Positions 8,404 through 24,135 of a DNA stretch of 64,000 nucleotides are shown piece by piece; the first letter of the stretch is position 1, and each line of letters starts with the position of its first letter. The stretch spans positions 39,197 to 103,196 of the IMG/VR virus record IMGVR_UViG_3300048060_000061. One strand, written 5' to 3'. This DNA comes from a virus (taxonomy: Duplodnaviria; Caudoviricetes). The notes below the pieces were generated by a model. It was not told the DNA's origin and did no database searches. It worked only from the letters and a program-made list of their open reading frames with translations. Position numbers and translations under genes: made by a program.

Positions 8404-11400
8404 ATGGCATTAGAACCTTCTGGAATATCACTACAAGCCAAAGGTTTCAAGGATTATGTTAAAAACCTTGATACCATAGAAAAGAAACAACGCGAAGCCT
8501 TTGATACCGAATTTGAAGGAACCAGTAAATCATTTGCTCAGGTAACCAAAGCAGCTAAAGCCTACGAAAAGGAGCTAGCTGCCGTTGCTGCTGCCGAAAA
8601 AAAAGCACAACAAGAGGCAGAAAAATTAGCTCAGGCTCAGGTAAAAGCTGCCGAAACAGCCCGTACTGCACAGAAAAAACAGGCTAAAGAAGCTGAAAGA
8701 AGTAGACGGGCTGGGCGTACTCAGGTAGGTGAAGGTGTTAGAGCTATTGCGACCGGCGATATATCTGGCGGCTTAAAAAATGTCGTAGGCGGACTTAAAG
8801 CTATCGGACCGGCGGCAGCGATTGCTACTGGCGGCCTTGCAGCAGTTGCAGCTGGCGCAGTCGTTGTTACTACTGCCGTAGGTGCGATTGGTGTAAGCGT
8901 TATTAATTTAGCTAAAGATACGGATACGGCAACAAGACAAATAGGAGCCGGTCTCGGAATTACAGCGGCGCAAGCAGCAGATAAATATAACAAATCAGTG
9001 CAGAATATTTTCAAAGATAATCCACAAGCTCAGTTTGGGGAAATTGCGCAAGCAATCACGCTAACTGAGCGTGCGCTTGATGGTCTAACAGATAAACAAT
9101 TAGAAAACATAGCAGGTCAGGCGATTAAAATTAGTGATCAGTTTGACCAAGATTTACCAAAAGTTATTGGAGCCTTTGAACAATCAATGGAACAATTAGG
9201 ACTTACTGGTGATCAAGCCGGTGACTTTATAACAGCATCTTTACAGAGACTTCCAGTTGATGATGCGATTGATAGTATTAACGAGTACAGTGGCACATTA
9301 GCAGACATGGGATTCGCTGGTGATGAGGCATTTTCGCTTTTACTTGGTGGTGCGCAAGGAGCAATTCTAGGAACTGACCGTGCAATTGATGCAATAAACG
9401 AATTTAACATAAGATTTGTAGAGGGCGGTGATGATATAAAAGAAAGTTTTGCTACCCTCGGATTAAATTTTGATGAGTTTAGACAAGCAGCAGAACAAGG
9501 AACCGGAACGGCGGCGGATGCTTTTAAGGCTTTTATTCAACGAGCCGGAGAGGTTGATTTAAGTATTACTTCTAACAGAGCGGCTGTTAACGCGCTTGGT
9601 ACTCAGTTTGAACAACTAAGTGCAGATACAATTAAAGCACTTGACCCTGACGCTATTGGCTTTGAAGATGTAGCAGGTGCGGCAGACAAACTTGATGAAC
9701 GTTTTGATACATTAGGTGGAGCTTTTCAACAAATAAGAGCTGGTGCATTAGTAGCCTTGGCCCCCATTGGCAAAGTTGTCTTGGACCTTGCCAACTCAAT
9801 CGTACCAAAAATAAAAGCAGCCTTTGAGGCAGTAAGGCCAGCTATAGAAGCCTTTGCCGCCAGAGTTGTACCAGCATTTGAATTTGGCGCCGCTGCCCTC
9901 GGCAGATTAGGAGAAAGTCTCGGATTAGCCCGAGACGGAGCTTCAACATTTGAATCTGTGCTAAATGGAGTTGCCGTTGTAATCGAAGGTGTGGCAGGTG
10001 GTATTGAAATCTTGGCCAGGGTTACCGAAACGTTCAGACAGATATTTGCATTTGCGCGCGCGGGCGCGGCGGCTTTTGGATCAATTATAAGCGATGTTTT
10101 TAGTACTGCTATAAAAAGTATCGGCGCGTTAGGGGCGGCTTTTCTAAAACTCGTCAAACTTGATTTCGCCGGGGCAGGCGAAGCGCTAAAAGATTTTGAA
10201 ATTATTGGTATTGATGATGTTAATAAATCTTTAGATAAAGCTGGACAGGCGGCAATTAGTAAATTCAAGGAAATTGCTGTCGATGTAGAAGAAATACCGA
10301 TCGAACCAGTTATTGTACCGGAGGTTGAAATACCGGCAGGTATTGATACGGGATTAGCAAAACCATTTATTGAACAGACCCAGGCTATAAAACTTAGCGA
10401 AGAAGCCCTTGAATCCTATCAAGGTGCATTAAAACAGGCAGAAGATTTACAACGATCTTTCTCCCGTGAAGCTGAAGATAGTGCCTTAAAACTAATTCGC
10501 GCCAATGAAGATATTGCCCGGTCGCAAGCCAAAGCGGAAAAAGATTTAGGTAGTAAACAGGCCAAGGATAGAGACAAACTTCTTGGTGATCAGATCCGAG
10601 AACTTGATGATTTTGAGAAAGATCGTAAGAAACAAATCGCTAAAGCCGAAGCGGATATTCGGCAAGCTCGAAAAGCGGCAGATGAGAAACGGAAACAAGA
10701 TCAGGCGAAACTTCAAAGAGAATTAAAACAGGCGCAGGACAGTTTCAATTTATCTCAATTGCAATCTGAACGACGGTTCAAATTGCAGGAAACGAGGCTG
10801 ATCGCAGAAGGCGATATTTTAGCCATACAGCAGCTTAGAGAAGATCAAGCCCTACAACGTCAAGAGGAAAAAGAAAACTTTGACGAGAGCCAAAAAGGGC
10901 GCATACAAAGTGCAGAGGAAACGCAGAAAGAGCAAGGCAAGGATTTAGAAAGCCAACTTAGTACGCTTAAGGCAAATCTTGAAGACCAAAAAGCGGAACT
11001 TTTAAGATCTTTTGATGAGCAGATAGAACAACAACGAATAGCACAAGCCGAAGAAAGAACATTACAGCAGCAAAAATTTGCGGAAGATGCCGCAGAACGA
11101 CAAATACAATTAGCCAGAGAAGAAGAAGATCGGCGTATCAGTCAACAAAGGCAGATTGAGGATCTGGGCCGGTCGTTGGCAGAACAAGCCGGGGTGACGG
11201 CTGAAGGGACTGCGGCTATAGCCGGCGAATTGGAAAAAGTCTTTGGTATTGATGGGGTAGCCGACAGTATCATGACCGGCTTTACCGAGAAAACTGAGAA
11301 CGAATTTACTGATTTGTTTGCGAATTTAGAGAAGACTGCTAGTGAAAGTAGCTTAAAGAAAATATTACAAGAAGTACAAGAAACAGCATTGCCAGGAACA

Positions 11401-11733
11401 TTAAGGCCATCACCCAGTAGTGGAGGTGGAGGTTTCGGTTCTCGTATAGGCGGCATACCAGAATTTGGGGAGGGCGGTGTTGTCCCTGGCCCTGTCGGAT
11501 CTCCCCAAATAATTCAGGCACATGGTGGAGAGACTATTTTTCCTACACAACAAAGATCATTTCAGATGATAGCGCCTGTGATTCCAAGTCAGAGCCTCGA
11601 GGTGCTCATGAGCGGTGGCTTTAATATAACTGGCGACGGGCAATCAAATGAGGCAATCCTACAGGCGGCAACTCAGGAGATGACAGAAAATTTCAGAATA
11701 GCAGTTCGTAGGTTAGCACGGAGAAATAACTAG
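8404..11733 (+). CDS. Tail tape measure protein
   Basis: 1109 aa, Ala/Gly-rich helical; DSINEYS...GTDRAIDAINEF minor-tail core; coiled coils; FGEGGVVPG...AHGGE C-terminal motif. Confidence 0.92.
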   Translation: MALEPSGISLQAKGFKDYVKNLDTIEKKQREAFDTEFEGTSKSFAQVTKAAKAYEKELAAVAAAEKKAQQEAEKLAQAQVKAAETARTAQKKQAKEAERSRRAGRTQVGEGVRAIATGDISGGLKNVVGGLKAIGPAAAIATGGLAAVAAGAVVVTTAVGAIGVSVINLAKDTDTATRQIGAGLGITAAQAADKYNKSVQNIFKDNPQAQFGEIAQAITLTERALDGLTDKQLENIAGQAIKISDQFDQDLPKVIGAFEQSMEQLGLTGDQAGDFITASLQRLPVDDAIDSINEYSGTLADMGFAGDEAFSLLLGGAQGAILGTDRAIDAINEFNIRFVEGGDDIKESFATLGLNFDEFRQAAEQGTGTAADAFKAFIQRAGEVDLSITSNRAAVNALGTQFEQLSADTIKALDPDAIGFEDVAGAADKLDERFDTLGGAFQQIRAGALVALAPIGKVVLDLANSIVPKIKAAFEAVRPAIEAFAARVVPAFEFGAAALGRLGESLGLARDGASTFESVLNGVAVVIEGVAGGIEILARVTETFRQIFAFARAGAAAFGSIISDVFSTAIKSIGALGAAFLKLVKLDFAGAGEALKDFEIIGIDDVNKSLDKAGQAAISKFKEIAVDVEEIPIEPVIVPEVEIPAGIDTGLAKPFIEQTQAIKLSEEALESYQGALKQAEDLQRSFSREAEDSALKLIRANEDIARSQAKAEKDLGSKQAKDRDKLLGDQIRELDDFEKDRKKQIAKAEADIRQARKAADEKRKQDQAKLQRELKQAQDSFNLSQLQSERRFKLQETRLIAEGDILAIQQLREDQALQRQEEKENFDESQKGRIQSAEETQKEQGKDLESQLSTLKANLEDQKAELLRSFDEQIEQQRIAQAEERTLQQQKFAEDAAERQIQLAREEEDRRISQQRQIEDLGRSLAEQAGVTAEGTAAIAGELEKVFGIDGVADSIMTGFTEKTENEFTDLFANLEKTASESSLKKILQEVQETALPGTLRPSPSSGGGGFGSRIGGIPEFGEGGVVPGPVGSPQIIQAHGGETIFPTQQRSFQMIAPVIPSQSLEVLMSGGFNITGDGQSNEAILQAATQEMTENFRIAVRRLARRNN

Positions 11734-13613: not shown

Positions 13614-13698
13614 AGGGGAATGATGGAATTGAACCATCTGCTAACCACCTGTCATATTTAAGCAAGTGTTTTACAGACACCCGACAGGAACATTCCCC
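13614..13698 (-). tRNA. Atypical tRNA-Tyr(GTA)-like RNA lacking a canonical D-arm
   Basis: GGGGAAT/ATTCCCC acceptor; GGTGT-CTGTAAA-ACACT; GATGG-TTCAATT-CCATC T-arm; only ~10 nt in the D region. Confidence 0.6.
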
Positions 13699-13702
13699 AT
13701 AA

Positions 13703-13777
13703 TGGCCCCTCCCGGATTCGAACCGGGACTGTCTGCATTTTAAGTGCAGTGCCTCATACCAATTGCGCTAAGGGGCC
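13703..13777 (-). tRNA. tRNA-Leu(TAA), short variable loop
   Basis: GGCCCCT acceptor; CTGCA-CTTAAAA-TGCAG; CCCGG-TTCGAAT-CCGGG. Confidence 0.85.
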
Positions 13778-13910
13778 AAATTATCTTACCTGAAAGTCTA
13801 CTTAAATCGTCTCAACTTCAAACCTACCGTTTCTATTTTCATTTACTTCCCTTTTATCACTAGCCATCATTTGCGATTAAAGTGTACGGTATAGGTATAC
13901 CAGTTTTCCA

Positions 13911-13947
13911 TCGAACCGGGACTGTCTGCATTTTAAGTGCAGTGCCT
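13911..13947. repeat. 37-nt exact copy of tRNA-Leu(TAA) segment 13718-13754
   Basis: TCGAACCGGGACTGTCTGCATTTTAAGTGCAGTGCCT occurs at both positions. Confidence 0.95.
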
Positions 13948-13956
13948 GTTCTTTTT

Positions 13957-14230
13957 ACTTACTCACAAACGCCCGTGGGGAAACCATGCAACACCGGGCC
14001 TGATTTCGGTTTAAAATCACTGATCCTCCAAACGCCCGTGGGGAAACCGACCTCCACAACCCACGATAACCGTTGAACCCACTGATCCTCCAAACGCCCG
14101 TGGGGAAACCGAATTGATCCTTATCAAAACAAACATCCCTGATCCTCCAAACGCCCGTGGGGAAACCTGTGAAGTGGGTTCGCGCATGTTCAACCGCGAA
14201 CCTGATCCTCCAAACGCCCGTGGGGAAACC
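13957..14230 (-). CRISPR. CRISPR array 1: four full 29-nt repeats, one degenerate terminal repeat, four spacers
   Basis: Repeat (minus) GGTTTCCCCACGGGCGTTTGGAGGATCAG at 14202-14230, 14139-14167, 14082-14110, 14020-14048; partial at 13966-13985; spacers 34, 28, 33, 34 nt. Confidence 0.95.
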
Positions 14231-14335
14231 CCTGAAAAGAGCAAATAAAAAGGTAATTCGCTCACTGTTAATATCAGCCGAATAATCTTGGCTGCACGTA
14301 ACTAGTGTCTTGGTTGAGCAGTCCCAACCGTGCAG
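14231..14335 (-). ncRNA. Putative omegaRNA/tracrRNA scaffold overlapping the 3' end of the nuclease gene
   Basis: Hairpins GGTTGG-GACTGC-TCAACC and CAGCC...GGCTG, then GAGCGAATTACC and the 5' strand of a 14-bp stem; TnpB omegaRNAs overlap the ORF end. Confidence 0.7.
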
Positions 14336-15653
14336 ACTTTTCCTCTAGCCTGCGTTCAAATTGCCCGGTTCGTGCTAATAAAATTACCTTAACATCTTTA
14401 TAAGGCGTAAATAACCGTATCTCAGGATCATTCAGCCTGGCCAAGATATTCCGAGCAGCATTTGTATCCGCTTGCAATACCTTCCCGTCGAAACAGTAAA
14501 ACCTATCCCCATTACGATGCCCCAATAGGATACCGTGCCGGGAATCAGTTTGCGAGGTATATGCAGCATTAACTGTTTTAATCGTAGAACCTCTACGATT
14601 AGATACCGATTCTATTGCCTCAGCTATAGCACCCTTCGTCCAACCAGCAAGACGGCGGTTTTGATTCTTGCCGTATGACTTGCCATTTATCGGGTTCGTT
14701 AAATCTTCGGTGACTATAATGTCGGCCTTGTCAACTACTGAATGAGCCGCCTTGAAAATCTTGTCTCTTACATTGGCTGTATGTATACGCTTGCGCTCAT
14801 CCAGCTTTTTACGCCCCAAGTTGTTTTTTAGAATATTATCACACTTATGGGGCTTCGCTTCCGCTATTGCCTTTAGCTTGTTTCTACGTTGATACTTGGT
14901 TTTAAGATAGTCTGATTCCTTACTTAACAATTCTCCTAGTCCTTCACCGTGGTGTTTCCCATCTGAATCTACAAAGACCTCAGTATAACCTTTATCAATT
15001 CCTATAGTCCCATCACCACTGGGTCGAGTAACGCAAACCTTTTCCTCATCAATAGCATAATGTACTTCAATACGTCCATTACGTAGGATCAACCGAAGTG
15101 TTCCCGATGGAGTATTGTTGCTATTCAAAGGGATAGCTATGCGCTTCCCAGATTCCAAGCTCATTACCTTAAGCCAAATCTTACCACCCTTTTCAAAAGT
15201 CGTATAGCATTGGGAATCCAGTACAATCTGATTATCAACCTTGGTTTTACCGTGCTTAAAATATTTACGCATCATACGACGCAAATAACTATCTTTCAAC
15301 CAATTGTCATATTTAAGCAGAGTATAAAGGCGTTTACGCTCGTCATTATCATCAGTCCTTTGGCGTATTGCCTTTCGCACTTTGACTTTGGCAGCTTCAC
15401 GGTAAGTAACTATATCTGCGAAAGTATCTCTTAAGGTTTCATTCCGAAGACGGGCGGCAATATTAAAGTGCCTACCTTCGGCGGTCCATTGATTTCTTAT
15501 TTGACGGTGTGTTAATTCTACACCTTGGACTGAACCAAAGCGTTGCCAGACTTCAGCCCGTAGTTTGCCCAATCGACTAGCCATTTCAGTTAATTGAGCT
15601 AACTTTCCTTCATTAAGATTTTGGCTGTAGATAATCCGAGTAACTTTACTCAT
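14274..15653 (-). CDS. tnpB: TnpB/miniature Cas12-family RNA-guided nuclease (resembles the V-U4/Cas12n clade)
   Basis: 459 aa; RuvC-I GIDKG (D220), RuvC-II VTEDL (E316), NAAYTSQ, RuvC-III ADTNAARNI (D396); degenerate Zn finger; CRISPR array 43 nt downstream. Confidence 0.88.
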   Translation of the reverse strand: MSKVTRIIYSQNLNEGKLAQLTEMASRLGKLRAEVWQRFGSVQGVELTHRQIRNQWTAEGRHFNIAARLRNETLRDTFADIVTYREAAKVKVRKAIRQRTDDNDERKRLYTLLKYDNWLKDSYLRRMMRKYFKHGKTKVDNQIVLDSQCYTTFEKGGKIWLKVMSLESGKRIAIPLNSNNTPSGTLRLILRNGRIEVHYAIDEEKVCVTRPSGDGTIGIDKGYTEVFVDSDGKHHGEGLGELLSKESDYLKTKYQRRNKLKAIAEAKPHKCDNILKNNLGRKKLDERKRIHTANVRDKIFKAAHSVVDKADIIVTEDLTNPINGKSYGKNQNRRLAGWTKGAIAEAIESVSNRRGSTIKTVNAAYTSQTDSRHGILLGHRNGDRFYCFDGKVLQADTNAARNILARLNDPEIRLFTPYKDVKVILLARTGQFERRLEEKSARLGLLNQDTSYVQPRLFG

Positions 15654-15660
15654 CAGATAC

Positions 15661-15867
15661 TTATACTACCTTGTCTTTCTTTTTTACCGTAGGTGGATTG
15701 ACCTGAATATCACCGCTAATTCCCAACAGAATCAGAGCTTCAACATATGATTGCCAGCGAATAAAGCCAGATTTTTTAGCAATATCTATAAGTTTTTCTT
15801 TGAAATCTTTTTCAATCCACATTTGGAGGTTGATTTGATTTTCACGGGTCATATTTTTGCTCCTCAA
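15661..15867 (-). CDS. RHH-like regulator upstream of tnpB
   Basis: INLQMWIEKDFKEKLIDIAKK...SYVEALI pattern; 7-nt gap to tnpB. Confidence 0.55.
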   Translation of the reverse strand: MRSKNMTRENQINLQMWIEKDFKEKLIDIAKKSGFIRWQSYVEALILLGISGDIQVNPPTVKKKDKVV

Positions 15868-15923
15868 TCATATTCAATATACACCTCCTATACAGAATTG
15901 TCAACTCTGGAATAGATATACTA

Positions 15924-23241: not shown

Positions 23242-24135
23242 TTATCTTTTCCACGCCGTATTGAAAAATGTAGCAAGGTCTTTCAAATCGCACTTCGGTA
23301 ATTCATAGCACGGTGCTTTTCTTGATCCACGTCCAGCAAAAAAACCATCTTGGTGGCGAAACCAAAGTGTTAATTCTTTAGCAACCGGCGAAGAAGATAA
23401 GACCAAATCGACTAATTTTCCAAGATGAGGTTCTTTCCATTCGGGAGCCCGTGAAGCTCCCATTGGGTAAGAGATTCCTTCTGGCGTCTTAATAGGCTCC
23501 CCTTCAAATACAACTATACGAGCCCCCTTATCATATGCGGAGAAGGTAACAGAGGGTGTTCCCCCACGAATTGCCCAAATTAACTTGTCATCTGATTTCC
23601 AGATAACTTTCTCGTCTAACTCTGCTTTTGTTTCTACTTTATGCTTTAACCAAGCTGCCGCCCGATCAAGCAAATCAAAACCGACCGCTACCATTTCCAT
23701 ATCGGTTAGGCGTTGACCAGTTAGTAAATTTTTTTGCAACCCTCCCCCCCAGAGGATAGAGTGAATCCCAACTGGTTCGGTTCGTGCTAAATCTCCCTGC
23801 CAAATAACTTTGATCAGGGGAGAAAGATAGGAAACATCAATACCTAAGTATAAAAGATATTCCCAAAGCATTTTTGCTGCACAAGTATTGGTACTTTGCG
23901 ATCCTTCAAGATGGTGGTGGTCAAAGCGCCATGTTTCAGGGCGGTATACTCCCCCCATATCACCGACTGATATAGCCGCTTCCAAAACATCCTGATCAAT
24001 CCGACTAAGAGACATCAAATTGATTTCGGCATCTTTGAAGGTCGGAACCACTTGACTTGCAAATCGTTTGACAAGCCAAAGGTAACAAATGGCATCAAAG
24101 TCTGGACTCTGATGGGTTACTATATGTTCTCTCAT
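23242..24135 (-). CDS. MYG1/DHH-like metal-dependent hydrolase
   Basis: IVTHQSPDFDA, VGDMGGVY and RFDHHH motifs. Confidence 0.65.
   Translation of the reverse strand: MREHIVTHQSPDFDAICYLWLVKRFASQVVPTFKDAEINLMSLSRIDQDVLEAAISVGDMGGVYRPETWRFDHHHLEGSQSTNTCAAKMLWEYLLYLGIDVSYLSPLIKVIWQGDLARTEPVGIHSILWGGGLQKNLLTGQRLTDMEMVAVGFDLLDRAAAWLKHKVETKAELDEKVIWKSDDKLIWAIRGGTPSVTFSAYDKGARIVVFEGEPIKTPEGISYPMGASRAPEWKEPHLGKLVDLVLSSSPVAKELTLWFRHQDGFFAGRGSRKAPCYELPKCDLKDLATFFNTAWKR

What the first reader, a model, noticed from the sequence alone, without database searches (positions are those of the whole stretch)
13945..14335. The array appears to sit inside the loop of the omegaRNA terminal hairpin (TnpB-to-Cas12 snapshot)
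Seen: the array is bracketed by an inverted repeat, 13951-13964 CTTTTTACTTACTC and 14239-14252 GAGCAAATAAAAAG. On the minus-strand RNA these form a 14-bp stem, and both deviations are G-U wobbles. The last repeat is a chimera: 20 nt of repeat (GGTTTCCCCACGGGCGTTTG) fused to TGAGTAAGTAAAAAGAACAG. Full repeats end GATCAG and this terminus ends GAACAG; both could pair with CUG in the scaffold hairpin loop GACUGC (~14318-14323). Inference: an ancestral single-guide omegaRNA gained I-E-like repeats in its last loop, splitting it into tracr-like and crRNA parts while keeping the old 3' end.
Basis: partly seen in the sequence, partly recalled or inferred. Interest (0 to 1): 0.92.

Follow-up and report, generated by a model that had tools for sequence, protein, structure and literature searches.

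The report
CRISPR mini-array nested inside TnpB guide RNA
A phage-borne TnpB nuclease carries a four-spacer CRISPR array inserted into the last hairpin of its transposon guide RNA, with the old guide-RNA end still present behind the array, so it is a natural intermediate between a transposon nuclease and a type V CRISPR system.

Summary
Observation confirmed; interpretation supported on structure and evolution, but function is untested.

- **Locus.** The window is part of a 103-kb tailed phage. Its minus strand reads promoter, 68-aa ORF, 459-aa TnpB, guide-RNA scaffold, four 29-nt repeats with spacers, a 20-nt partial repeat, TGAGTAAGTAAAAAGAACAG, then a 35-nt copy of the phage's tRNA-Leu.
- **Array-less relatives.** In 63 distinct guide RNAs from relatives (about 50-73% protein identity), the RNA ends in a covarying stem (CCU..., loop, ...AGG) followed by AACAG or AGCAG.
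- **Closest relatives.** The three with readable DNA (78-80% identity) all carry mini-arrays at the same nested position. Two of them still have the IS607 serine-recombinase transposase. The proteins form one clade (support 100) nested among array-less TnpBs.
- **Bracketing stem.** The 14-bp stem survives in the minimum-energy fold of the whole 390-nt RNA, and it pairs best with its own partner when the loci are compared.
- **Repeats.** They are chimeric: the first 17 nt resemble the type I-E-like repeats elsewhere in this phage, and the last 8 nt (AGGATCAG) copy the guide-RNA end (AGGAACAG).

Transposon-CRISPR intermediates (TranC; Jin et al., Cell 2025) are already a published concept, so this is a new variant, not a new kind. 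This scan had already noted the same locus in this genome.

The parts
15876..15904 (-). Promoter-like site TTGACA-17-TATATT upstream of the small ORF, tnpB and array unit
   Evidence: Consensus scan, 11 of 12 positions match. Not tested functionally.
15661..15867 (-). 68-aa ORF upstream of tnpB, of unknown family. It occupies the place where relatives have the tnpA transposase.
   Evidence: ORF list. No Pfam or PHROGs match. Relatives L004, L115 and L116 have a MerR plus Resolvase TnpA at this position.
14274..15653 (-). 459-aa TnpB-family RNA-guided nuclease (P0001) with RuvC residues D220, E316 and D396 conserved
   Evidence: NCBIfam guided_TnpB 3e-30 and Pfam Cas12f1-like_TNB 5e-10. The three acidic residues are invariant in alignment A1. 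The predicted fold matches TnpB and Cas12f structures.
14232..14329 (-). Guide-RNA scaffold (candidate tracr-like part). It holds hairpin 1 (14329-14312, loop ACUGCU), stem 2 with an inner hairpin, the GAGCGAAUUA linker, the 5' strand of the terminal stem and the UUUUCAGG junction. It overlaps the last 55 nt of the ORF.
   Evidence: Covariance model R1, built from 63 array-less guide RNAs, matches 14329-14202 end to end at 69 bits, E 1e-13. Helices covary in the relatives.
14239..14252 (-). 5' strand of the terminal stem (CUUUUUAUUUGCUC), the candidate anti-repeat
   Evidence: Pairs over 14 bp with 13964-13951 at -16.5 kcal/mol. Pairs over 5+5 bp with the GGGCG...GGAGG of each repeat at -10.3 kcal/mol.
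13986..14230 (-). Mini-array of four identical 29-nt repeats GGTTTCCCCACGGGCGTTTGGAGGATCAG (14230-14202, 14167-14139, 14110-14082, 14048-14020), with spacers of 34, 28, 33 and 34 nt
   Evidence: Repeat search and pattern search. The first 17 nt match the phage's other repeat GTTTTCCCCACAGGCGT at 15 of 17 positions. The last 8 nt, AGGATCAG, compare with the guide-RNA end AGGAACAG.
13966..13985 (-). Terminal partial repeat (the first 20 nt of the repeat)
13946..13965 (-). Retained ancestral right-end remnant TGAGTAAGTAAAAAGAACAG. It consists of one half-site, the 3' strand of the terminal stem (13964-13951) and the tail AACAG (13950-13946).
   Evidence: It matches the guide-RNA ends of sister loci at 16 of 20 positions (for example GGCTAAGAAAAAAGGAACAG in L116). 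The same remnant follows the arrays in L114 and L115.
13911..13945 (-). 35-nt exact copy of the middle of the phage's tRNA-Leu(UAA) gene (37 nt if the preceding AG is counted), sitting where the ancestral guide would be
   Evidence: Direct repeat D3. tRNA-Leu lies at 13702-13778. BLAST finds both copies. No tRNA 5' half occurs elsewhere in the window.

Best explanation
This is an IS607-lineage TnpB locus caught between a transposon guide-RNA system and a type V CRISPR system, that is, a TranC-like intermediate now resident in a tailed phage.

**Ancestral state (shown by comparison).** The guide RNA (omegaRNA) overlaps the 3' end of tnpB. It consists of hairpin 1, stem 2 with an inner hairpin, a GAGCGAAUUA linker, a terminal hairpin (CCU-N, loop with transposase half-sites, N-AGG) and a single-stranded A(A/G)CAG that abuts the guide.

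**Derived state (shown).** In one small clade a mini-array lies between the 5' strand of the terminal hairpin and its loop and 3' strand. The old right end survives behind the array.

**Repeat make-up (shown).** Each repeat is a chimera. It has a type I-E-like hairpin half, and its last 8-10 nt (GGAGGAUCAG) copy the guide-adjacent end of the guide RNA.

**How it most likely works (inferred).**
1. One transcript runs from the promoter at 15904 through the 68-aa ORF, tnpB, the scaffold, the array and the right-end remnant.
2. The scaffold acts as a tracr-like RNA.
3. Its 3' segment CCUUUUUAUUUGCUC pairs either with a repeat's GGGCG...GGAGG, which rebuilds the terminal stem and places AUCAG plus a spacer where AACAG plus guide used to sit, or with the ancestral 3' strand, which rebuilds the original single guide RNA whose guide is the tRNA-Leu copy.
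4. The CAG of the tail pairs with the CUG of the hairpin-1 loop as a pseudoknot.
5. Spacers then direct the RuvC nuclease against other DNA, probably competing phages or mobile elements.
6. New spacers, if any are still acquired, would need a host Cas1-Cas2.
For: **Family and ancestral guide RNA**
- TnpB family membership and intact D-E-D residues.
- Roughly 1760 homologs were found, and about 95 fetched loci are array-less and share one guide-RNA architecture.
- On 63 distinct guide RNAs, 92.9% of cells pair against 80.9% in shuffles. In the terminal stem all 5 counted pairs show double changes and 91% of cells pair. In stem 2, 6 of 8 pairs show double changes.
- Terminal helix length is 5.9 bp with the true partner against 4.3 +/- 0.17 bp with permuted partners.

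**The array-bearing clade**
- L114 (80% identity), L115 (78%) and L004 (78%) carry arrays at the same nested place. L114 and L115 end in ...AAAAAAGGAACAG and ...GAAAAAGGAACAG behind the array.
- These proteins form one clade with SH-aLRT support 100, nested in array-less TnpBs.
- An IS607-type TnpA (MerR plus Resolvase) lies directly upstream of tnpB in L004 and L115.

**The bracketing stem**
- It is present in the minimum-energy and centroid folds of the whole 390-nt RNA.
- With the array removed in silico, the RNA folds like the relatives' guide RNAs.
- Cognate pairing of the 5' strand with the terminal strand (-16.5, -15.8 and -16.0 kcal/mol) is the best in every row and column across the three loci. 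One A:U pair in the window is C:G in L115.

**Repeats as copies of the guide-RNA end**
- The covariance model from array-less guide RNAs aligns end to end with scaffold plus first repeat in all four array loci, at 64-69 bits.
- All four loci can form the same two-helix pairing between repeat and 5' strand, although their repeat sequences differ.

**Pseudoknot**
- Covariation is seen in L094 and L099.

**Expression signals and adaptation genes**
- A promoter-like site lies upstream, and no terminator lies between tnpB and the array.
- The phage has no Cas1 and no resolvase gene.
Against: - No expression or processing data are available.
- No protospacer was found for any spacer in the phage's own genome, the fetched loci, 50,697 phage records or IMG/VR.
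- Pairing between repeat and anti-repeat in the window is short and weak: 5+5 bp at -10.3 kcal/mol, with three G-U pairs.
- The pseudoknot is almost invariant, so its covariation rests on two sequences.
- Only four loci of the array-bearing clade could be read. One of them (L004) breaks off after the first repeat, and the closest relative (P0002, 84% identity) yielded no DNA.
- The window's right-end remnant has lost one G and one half-site compared with its relatives, so the ancestral single guide may no longer work.
- The bracketing stem could be inherited sequence that has not yet decayed, not a selected structure.
- The I-E ancestry of the repeat's 5' half is resemblance only.
Confidence: 0.72

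Rival explanations
1. The repeats arose in place, by tandem duplication of the guide RNA's own 3' module (terminal hairpin, AACAG and guide). Under this view no foreign I-E-type array was captured, and the resemblance to I-E repeats is convergence or later gene conversion from the phage's other arrays.
For: - The last 8-10 nt of each repeat copy the guide-RNA end, and the covariance model treats scaffold plus first repeat as a full guide RNA.
- Each repeat can fold as hairpin plus tail, like a miniature terminal hairpin. Fold energies are -12.8 kcal/mol in L114 and -11.9 in L115.
- This is the route implied by the published RNA-splitting model for TranC (PMC13565253, PMC13639567).
Against: - The repeat hairpin half (GGTYYCYCYAC..GGCG) has no counterpart in the terminal loops of 63 array-less guide RNAs. 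Those loops hold half-sites such as GCATAAG or GTCCAAC.
- The same half matches the phage's bona fide 29-nt repeat at 15 of 17 positions, and it is also present in L004, L114 and L115, which come from other samples.
- Repeat length is 29 nt and spacers are 32-34 nt, which fits a type I-E integrase. This last point is from established knowledge and was not tested here.
Confidence: 0.15
2. The array is a passenger. It would be a phage or mobile-element mini-array serving a host type I-E system, or a decaying relic. TnpB would use only a single guide (scaffold plus first repeat and spacer 1, or the terminal remnant), and the other spacers would not be used by TnpB.
For: - The phage carries four other arrays with intact I-E-like repeats and has no cas genes, so it may rely on host factors.
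- No protospacers were found.
- Trans pairing is weak in the window.
Against: - The 3' end of this repeat was remodelled from ...GTGGACCG to ...AGGATCAG. That destroys the I-E handle and matches this nuclease's guide-RNA end.
- The nested position and the GGAGGATCAG end are conserved in four loci whose repeats otherwise differ.
- The four repeats in the window are identical, which argues against decay.
Confidence: 0.1
3. The inverted repeat is a chance match between A-rich and U-rich stretches and has no structural meaning.
For: About six other sites in the 64-kb window pair with the 5' strand as well as this one does, and 15 of 5000 shuffles reach the same energy.
Against: - The homologous stem ends the guide RNA in dozens of relatives, with covariation.
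- Cognate pairing is best across the three array-bearing loci, with an A:U to C:G exchange.
- The mismatches become G-U pairs only on the strand that is transcribed.
Confidence: 0.03

Closest known systems
TranC (transposon-CRISPR intermediates; Jin et al., Cell 2025, doi 10.1016/j.cell.2025.09.004). Known to me only through PMC13565253, PMC13639567 and bioRxiv 10.64898/2026.03.27.714800.
   Same: - A TnpB-sized nuclease that is closer to TnpBs than to named Cas12 types.
- A short co-oriented CRISPR array directly downstream.
- No adaptation genes.
- Derivation from IS605 or IS607 lineages.
- A guide RNA read as a split of the ancestral right-end RNA into tracr and crRNA.
- Some members are encoded by phages.
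   Different: - I could not check whether this clade is among the published TranC clades, because the Cell paper is not held.
- Repeats here are 29 nt, against 32-38 nt for the clades described in the 2026 preprint.
- The protein shows no sequence match to LaTranC or to any solved structure. Foldseek places LaTranC only at rank 32.
- Three features are not mentioned in the texts I could read: the ancestral right end retained behind the array, TnpA still present in two relatives, and a repeat whose 5' half looks type I-E-like.
IS607-family TnpB with right-end guide RNA (for example ISFba1 TnpB with its RAGATH-18-derived reRNA; Ren et al. 2024, PMC11061315)
   Same: - A serine-recombinase TnpA is the partner in relatives.
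- The guide RNA overlaps the 3' end of tnpB and ends at the right end of the element.
- Pseudoknots are part of the scaffold.
- AG-rich motifs lie next to the left end. Here the left-end junctions read R-GAG.
   Different: - The proteins are longer: about 460 aa against about 390 aa.
- The guide RNA is not RAGATH-18 and matches no Rfam family.
- The window copy has no TnpA and carries an array.
Cas12f / type V-F and other miniature type V systems
   Same: - A small RuvC nuclease used with a tracrRNA and a short array.
- These are the best structural matches: CnCas12f 6.7e-10 and AsCas12f 1.6e-9.
   Different: - Only about 15% identity and TM-scores near 0.3.
- NCBIfam files the protein under guided_TnpB, not under any Cas12 equivalog.
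- There is no domain gain compared with array-less sisters (458-459 aa against 461-465 aa).
Type I-E CRISPR repeats and phage-borne mini-arrays
   Same: - 29-nt repeats with spacers of about 32-34 nt.
- The 5' half GGTTTCCCCAC..GGCGT is like the phage's other repeat GTTTTCCCCACAGGCGTGGGGGTGGACCG.
   Different: - The 3' handle is replaced by AGGATCAG.
- The hairpin is weakened in the window, at -5.6 against -13.1 kcal/mol.
- The phage has no Cascade or Cas6e genes.
- No Rfam CRISPR-DR family matched.

Membership tests
TnpB (OMEGA) RNA-guided nuclease, IS607 lineage | RuvC-fold TnpB protein with the D-E-D catalytic triad | tested here: met
   NCBIfam guided_TnpB 3e-30 (105.8 bits, cut-off 100) and Pfam PF07282. 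D220, E316 and D396 are invariant in A1. The predicted fold matches TnpB and Cas12f.
TnpB (OMEGA) RNA-guided nuclease, IS607 lineage | Serine-recombinase TnpA (MerR HTH plus Resolvase) encoded next to tnpB | tested here: not met
   There is no Resolvase domain anywhere in the 103-kb phage, and a 68-aa ORF of no known family sits upstream. The feature is met in relatives L004, L115 (partial) and L116, so the lineage is IS607 but this copy is no longer a transposon.
TnpB (OMEGA) RNA-guided nuclease, IS607 lineage | Guide RNA that overlaps the 3' end of tnpB and ends at the right end, directly before the guide | tested here: met
   The covariance model from 63 array-less guide RNAs hits 14329-14202 at 69 bits. 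The right-end remnant ...AAAAAGAACAG is retained at 13965-13946.
TranC / early type V CRISPR-Cas | CRISPR array next to, and co-oriented with, a TnpB-like effector that is closer to TnpBs than to named Cas12 types | tested here: met
   Four identical repeats plus one partial repeat start 43 nt after the stop codon. The clade is nested among array-less TnpBs.
TranC / early type V CRISPR-Cas | tracrRNA whose anti-repeat pairs with the repeat, as a functional split of the right-end RNA | tested here: inconclusive
   Predicted two-helix pairing of 10-15 bp in all four loci, at -10.3 to -16.3 kcal/mol. There are no RNA data.
TranC / early type V CRISPR-Cas | crRNA-guided DNA cleavage with a PAM or TAM | not testable with these tools
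   This needs interference or cleavage assays. Left-end junctions of relatives suggest an R-GAG motif.
TranC / early type V CRISPR-Cas | Membership in one of the published TranC clades | not tested
   The Cell 2025 paper and its sequence lists are not held.
Type I-E CRISPR array | 29-nt repeat with a stable stem-loop and a conserved 3' handle ending ACCG, with I-E cas genes present | tested here: not met
   The length is 29 nt and the 5' half is alike. However, the 3' end is AGGATCAG, the hairpin is weak (-5.6 kcal/mol), the phage has no Cas1, and no Rfam CRISPR-DR family matched. The description of I-E repeats rests on established knowledge, not on a test here.

The most novel reading that the evidence does not exclude
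A family of IS607 transposons carries a CRISPR mini-array inside its own right end while still encoding its transposase (L004, L115). Under this reading the array was captured from a type I-E-like array, not grown from the guide RNA. The 8-nt 3' tag of the repeat was rewritten to the guide-RNA end (AGGAACAG to AGGAUCAG), so that the tag, through a loop-to-tail pseudoknot, decides which nuclease loads the crRNA. The phage here would then run two orthogonal TnpB-array systems that share the I-E-like half, possibly to borrow host Cas1-Cas2 for spacer uptake, but differ in the tag (GGACCG versus GAUCAG). That would make array capture plus tag rewriting a second route to type V systems, beside RNA splitting.
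Probability: 0.25. Interest if true: 0.85.

Novelty: new variant of a known kind. Interest (0 to 1): 0.68.

Why it matters
How the first CRISPR arrays became attached to TnpB is the least documented step in the origin of type V systems.

This locus and its three readable relatives show the step in natural sequence. The ancestral single guide RNA, the array and the retained transposon end lie in one transcript unit. Array-less sisters at 70-73% identity give the 'before' state. In two relatives the transposase is still in place.

The locus also suggests that the repeats were not simply duplicated guide-RNA ends. They look like chimeras of a pre-existing type I-E-like repeat and the 8-nt guide-adjacent tag. 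This can be tested directly by swapping tags and loops.

In practical terms, it defines a 459-aa nuclease with a scaffold of about 100 nt and a natural multi-guide format.

Tried and rejected
- **Spacer targets.** No protospacer was found in the phage genome or the fetched loci, in the INPHARED phage collection by blastn, or in IMG/VR by an exact 24-mer of spacer 4.
- **More members of the array-bearing clade.** IMG/VR searches with a repeat pattern and with a leader-repeat junction pattern found nothing. The contigs of P0002 (84% identity) could not be read.
- **Empty-site comparison.** The neighbouring 427-aa phage gene has no relatives in IMG/VR.
- **Rfam.** No known family covers the scaffold or either repeat type. 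RAGATH-18 was considered and rejected.
- **Solved structures by sequence.** No hits.
- **Simple IS insertion into a tRNA-Leu gene as the source of the tRNA copy.** No tRNA 5' half lies anywhere else in the window, and the copy is also cut at its 3' side. This stays open.
- **Cas12 hacker/Cas12p.** Read and set aside as an unrelated 500-700-aa family.
- **Whole-RNA stability.** The fold energy of the 390-nt RNA is not unusual (z = -0.19), so overall stability is not used as evidence.
Full report
**1. What is there**

The window is part of a complete 103-kb virus record with direct terminal repeats. A tape-measure gene at 8404-11733 marks it as a tailed phage. Between tail genes, on the minus strand, lies a compact unit with these parts, in order:
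- a promoter-like site at 15904-15876;
- a 68-aa ORF of no known family;
- a 459-aa ORF at 15653-14274, which NCBIfam places in the RNA-guided TnpB family (3e-30) and Pfam in Cas12f1-like_TNB;
- 43 nt of non-coding sequence;
- four identical 29-nt repeats GGTTTCCCCACGGGCGTTTGGAGGATCAG, separated by spacers of 34, 28, 33 and 34 nt;
- a fifth unit made of the first 20 nt of the repeat fused to TGAGTAAGTAAAAAGAACAG;
- 35 nt identical to the middle of the phage's own tRNA-Leu(UAA) gene, whose duplicated stretch begins 193 bp further along the minus strand, at the head of a tRNA cluster.

On the minus-strand RNA it gives 14 consecutive pairs, two of them G-U. On the other strand those two positions would be mismatches.

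**2. The family and its ordinary guide RNA**

The protein has about 1760 detectable homologs. Many share 60-84% identity, and most are labelled IS605 OrfB. I fetched about 110 loci.

Where the neighbourhood is visible, the partner transposase is a MerR plus Resolvase serine recombinase. The lineage is therefore IS607, not IS605.

Downstream of the array-less genes the sequence is strikingly uniform:
- a hairpin GGUUGGGACUGCUCAACC;
- a long-range stem enclosing a variable hairpin;
- the linker GAGCGAAUUA;
- a terminal hairpin that opens CCU and closes AGG, with two short half-sites in its loop;
- AACAG or AGCAG, after which the loci diverge completely.

That divergence point is the right end of the element, and the divergent sequence is the guide.

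Covariation was counted on 63 distinct sequences:

| Measure | Result |
|---|---|
| Cells forming a standard pair | 92.9% (80.9% in shuffles, none of 500 as high) |
| Stem 2 | 6 of 8 pairs with compensatory changes |
| Terminal stem | all 5 counted pairs with compensatory changes, 91% paired |

Because the terminal stem aligns poorly, I also measured it sequence by sequence. The contiguous helix averages 5.9 bp with the true partner strand and 4.3 +/- 0.17 bp with partners swapped between loci.

The family matches no Rfam model and is not RAGATH-18.

**3.

The prediction was that array-less relatives end in this stem followed by GAACAG. They do.

The sister group (L116, L005 and L007, 70-73% identity) reads CCUUU..., half-sites, ...AAGAAAAAAGGAACAG. 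The window reads CCUUUUUAUUUGCUC, then UUUUCAGG, then the array, then UGAGUAAGUAAAAAGAACAG. The last 20 nt match the sister ends at 16 of 20 positions.

With the array removed in silico, the RNA folds into the same three-part architecture as the relatives, with a 5-nt free tail. With the array left in, the 14-bp bracketing stem is still part of both the minimum-energy and the centroid structure of the 390-nt RNA.

**4. The closest relatives have the same nested layout**

| Locus | Identity | Layout after the 5' strand and a UUUCAGG junction |
|---|---|---|
| L114 | 80% | two full repeats with 32-nt spacers, a partial repeat, two half-sites, then AAAAAAGGAACAG |
| L115 | 78% | two repeats, 23 nt, two half-sites, then GAAAAAGGAACAG |
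| L004 | 78% | first repeat, then the contig ends, as contigs often do inside arrays |

The repeats differ between loci:
- window: GGTTTCCCCACGGGCGTTTG...
- L114: GGTCTCTCTACGGGCGTAGG...
- L115: GGTCTCCCCACGAGTGCGTG...
- L004: GGTTCCCCCACAGGCGCACG...

All four end in GAGGATCAG.

In a maximum-likelihood tree of 91 proteins, the window, P0002, L114, L115 and L004 form one clade with support 100, nested among array-less TnpBs. This points to a single origin. No protein domain was gained.

L004 has a complete TnpA, and L115 has the readable part of one, directly upstream of tnpB. L004 sits next to bacterial two-component genes. The array therefore lives inside what still looks like a transposon in cellular genomes. 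The phage copy has lost the transposase.

Across the three loci where both strands can be read, the 5' strand pairs best with its own terminal strand: -16.5, -15.8 and -16.0 kcal/mol against -8.9 to -14.8 for the other combinations. One A:U pair of the window is C:G in L115. This argues that the bracketing stem is maintained, not merely left over.

**5. What the repeats are**

A covariance model built only from array-less guide RNAs aligns end to end with scaffold plus first repeat in all four array loci (64-69 bits, E about 1e-13). The repeat's GGAGGAUCAG takes the place of ...AGGAACAG. The last 8-10 nt of each repeat are therefore a copy of the guide-adjacent end of the guide RNA.

The other half of the repeat is foreign to the guide RNA. 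Nothing like CCCCAC..GGCG occurs in the terminal loops of the 63 relatives.

That half does match the repeat of four other arrays in this same phage, GTTTTCCCCACAGGCGTGGGGGTGGACCG, at 15 of the first 17 positions. That repeat is 29 nt long, has a strong hairpin (-13.1 kcal/mol) and has spacers of about 32-34 nt. From established knowledge this is the look of a type I-E repeat. I could not confirm the resemblance with a tool.

A pre-existing array of that kind came to lie in the terminal hairpin, and the 8-nt 3' tag of its repeats was rewritten to the guide-RNA end. The rival reading, that the repeats grew by duplication of the guide RNA's own end, explains the tag but not the hairpin half.

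**6. How it would work**

The following steps are inferred, not shown.
- The scaffold's last segment can pair with each repeat through two short helices, CCUUU with GGAGG and UGCUC with GGGCG.
- All four loci can form this pattern although their repeats differ (10-15 bp, -10.3 to -16.3 kcal/mol).
- That pairing rebuilds the terminal stem in trans and puts AUCAG plus spacer where AACAG plus guide belongs.
- The same segment pairs more strongly with the retained right-end strand, which rebuilds the ancestral single guide RNA.
- In relatives this pairing is nearly invariant. L094 changes both sides (loop CCG, tail CGG), and L099 has the two swapped (loop ACAGC, tail GCUGU). This is suggestive but thin.

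The RuvC triad is intact, a promoter-like site precedes the unit, and no terminator separates gene and array. The phage has no Cas1. I found no targets for the spacers.

**7. Comparison with what is known**

Transposon-CRISPR intermediates, TranC, were described in 2025. [quoted passage not shown] This locus fits that kind.

I could not read the original paper, so I cannot say whether this clade is already listed.

The protein is not close to LaTranC or to any solved structure by sequence. By fold it is a generic TnpB/Cas12f.

Three features are not mentioned in the texts I could read:
- the array physically nested in the terminal hairpin, with the old right end kept behind it;
- the transposase still present in two relatives;
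- the chimeric repeat with an I-E-like half.

I therefore rate it a new variant of a known kind. The locus remains a clean natural intermediate with a testable claim about where the repeats came from.

**8. Limits**

- Four readable loci define the array-bearing clade.
- There are no RNA data and no targets.
- The I-E ancestry of the repeat half and all functional steps are inferences.

Noticed in passing
window 13911-13945 (-) and 13702-13778 (-): The guide position behind ...AACAG holds a 35-nt exact copy of the phage's own tRNA-Leu(UAA). In the intact gene the match is preceded by T-GAG, whereas about a dozen left-end junctions of array-less relatives that I read from the printed part start R-GAG. 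If R-GAG is the target-adjacent motif, the T may spare the phage's own gene. The tRNA 5' half is not found elsewhere in the window.
   Followed up: partly
genome G000:C1 15855-17803 (outside the window), 23791-23944, and window 49198-49476: The phage has four more arrays with an intact I-E-like 29-nt repeat GTTTTCCCCACAGGCGTGGGGGTGGACCG. Two of them flank a second TnpB-like gene (about 17334-16060, minus strand) that a search with P0001 did not detect. Its scaffold ends ...GGGAGTGGACCG, the same 8-mer as the repeat's 3' end, and it has a hairpin loop AGGUUC that could pair with GGACC. This is the same loop-to-tail logic with a different tag.
   Followed up: partly
genome G000:C1 17548-17803: In the 8-repeat array one spacer occurs twice (GTGCGATATGACCGATTGCAAACGTTGTGATGA), and one repeat pair is separated by only 11 nt.
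   Followed up: no
window 13614-13699 (-): Between the called tRNAs lies an 86-nt stretch with a weak tRNA-Sec-like Rfam match (28.6 bits, below the cut-off) that ARAGORN did not call. The two tRNA-Leu genes are only 75-77 nt long, short for a class II tRNA.
   Followed up: no
L114 1-277; window 15661-15700: L114 keeps only about the last 25 codons of tnpA (…LYGLRSYKKKIKE…) in front of tnpB, so it is a decaying element. The 3' end of the window's 68-aa ORF (…VKKKDKVV) loosely resembles that stretch at the DNA level, so this ORF may have replaced tnpA by partial deletion.
   Followed up: no
L043, L049, L031, L035, L036, L076, L077, L080, L116, L005, L058, L068, L013, L015, L017 (left ends): Homology between independent copies of array-less elements starts at GAG, usually preceded by a purine, and ends at A(A/G)CAG. 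This fits a serine-recombinase crossover at AG and an R-GAG target-adjacent motif.
   Followed up: partly
about 95 loci, for example L036 3783-3886 and L116 2413-2518: The roughly 105-nt guide RNA of this large IS607 TnpB family (proteins of about 460 aa) has strong covariation and matches no Rfam family. Model R1 could seed one.
   Followed up: partly
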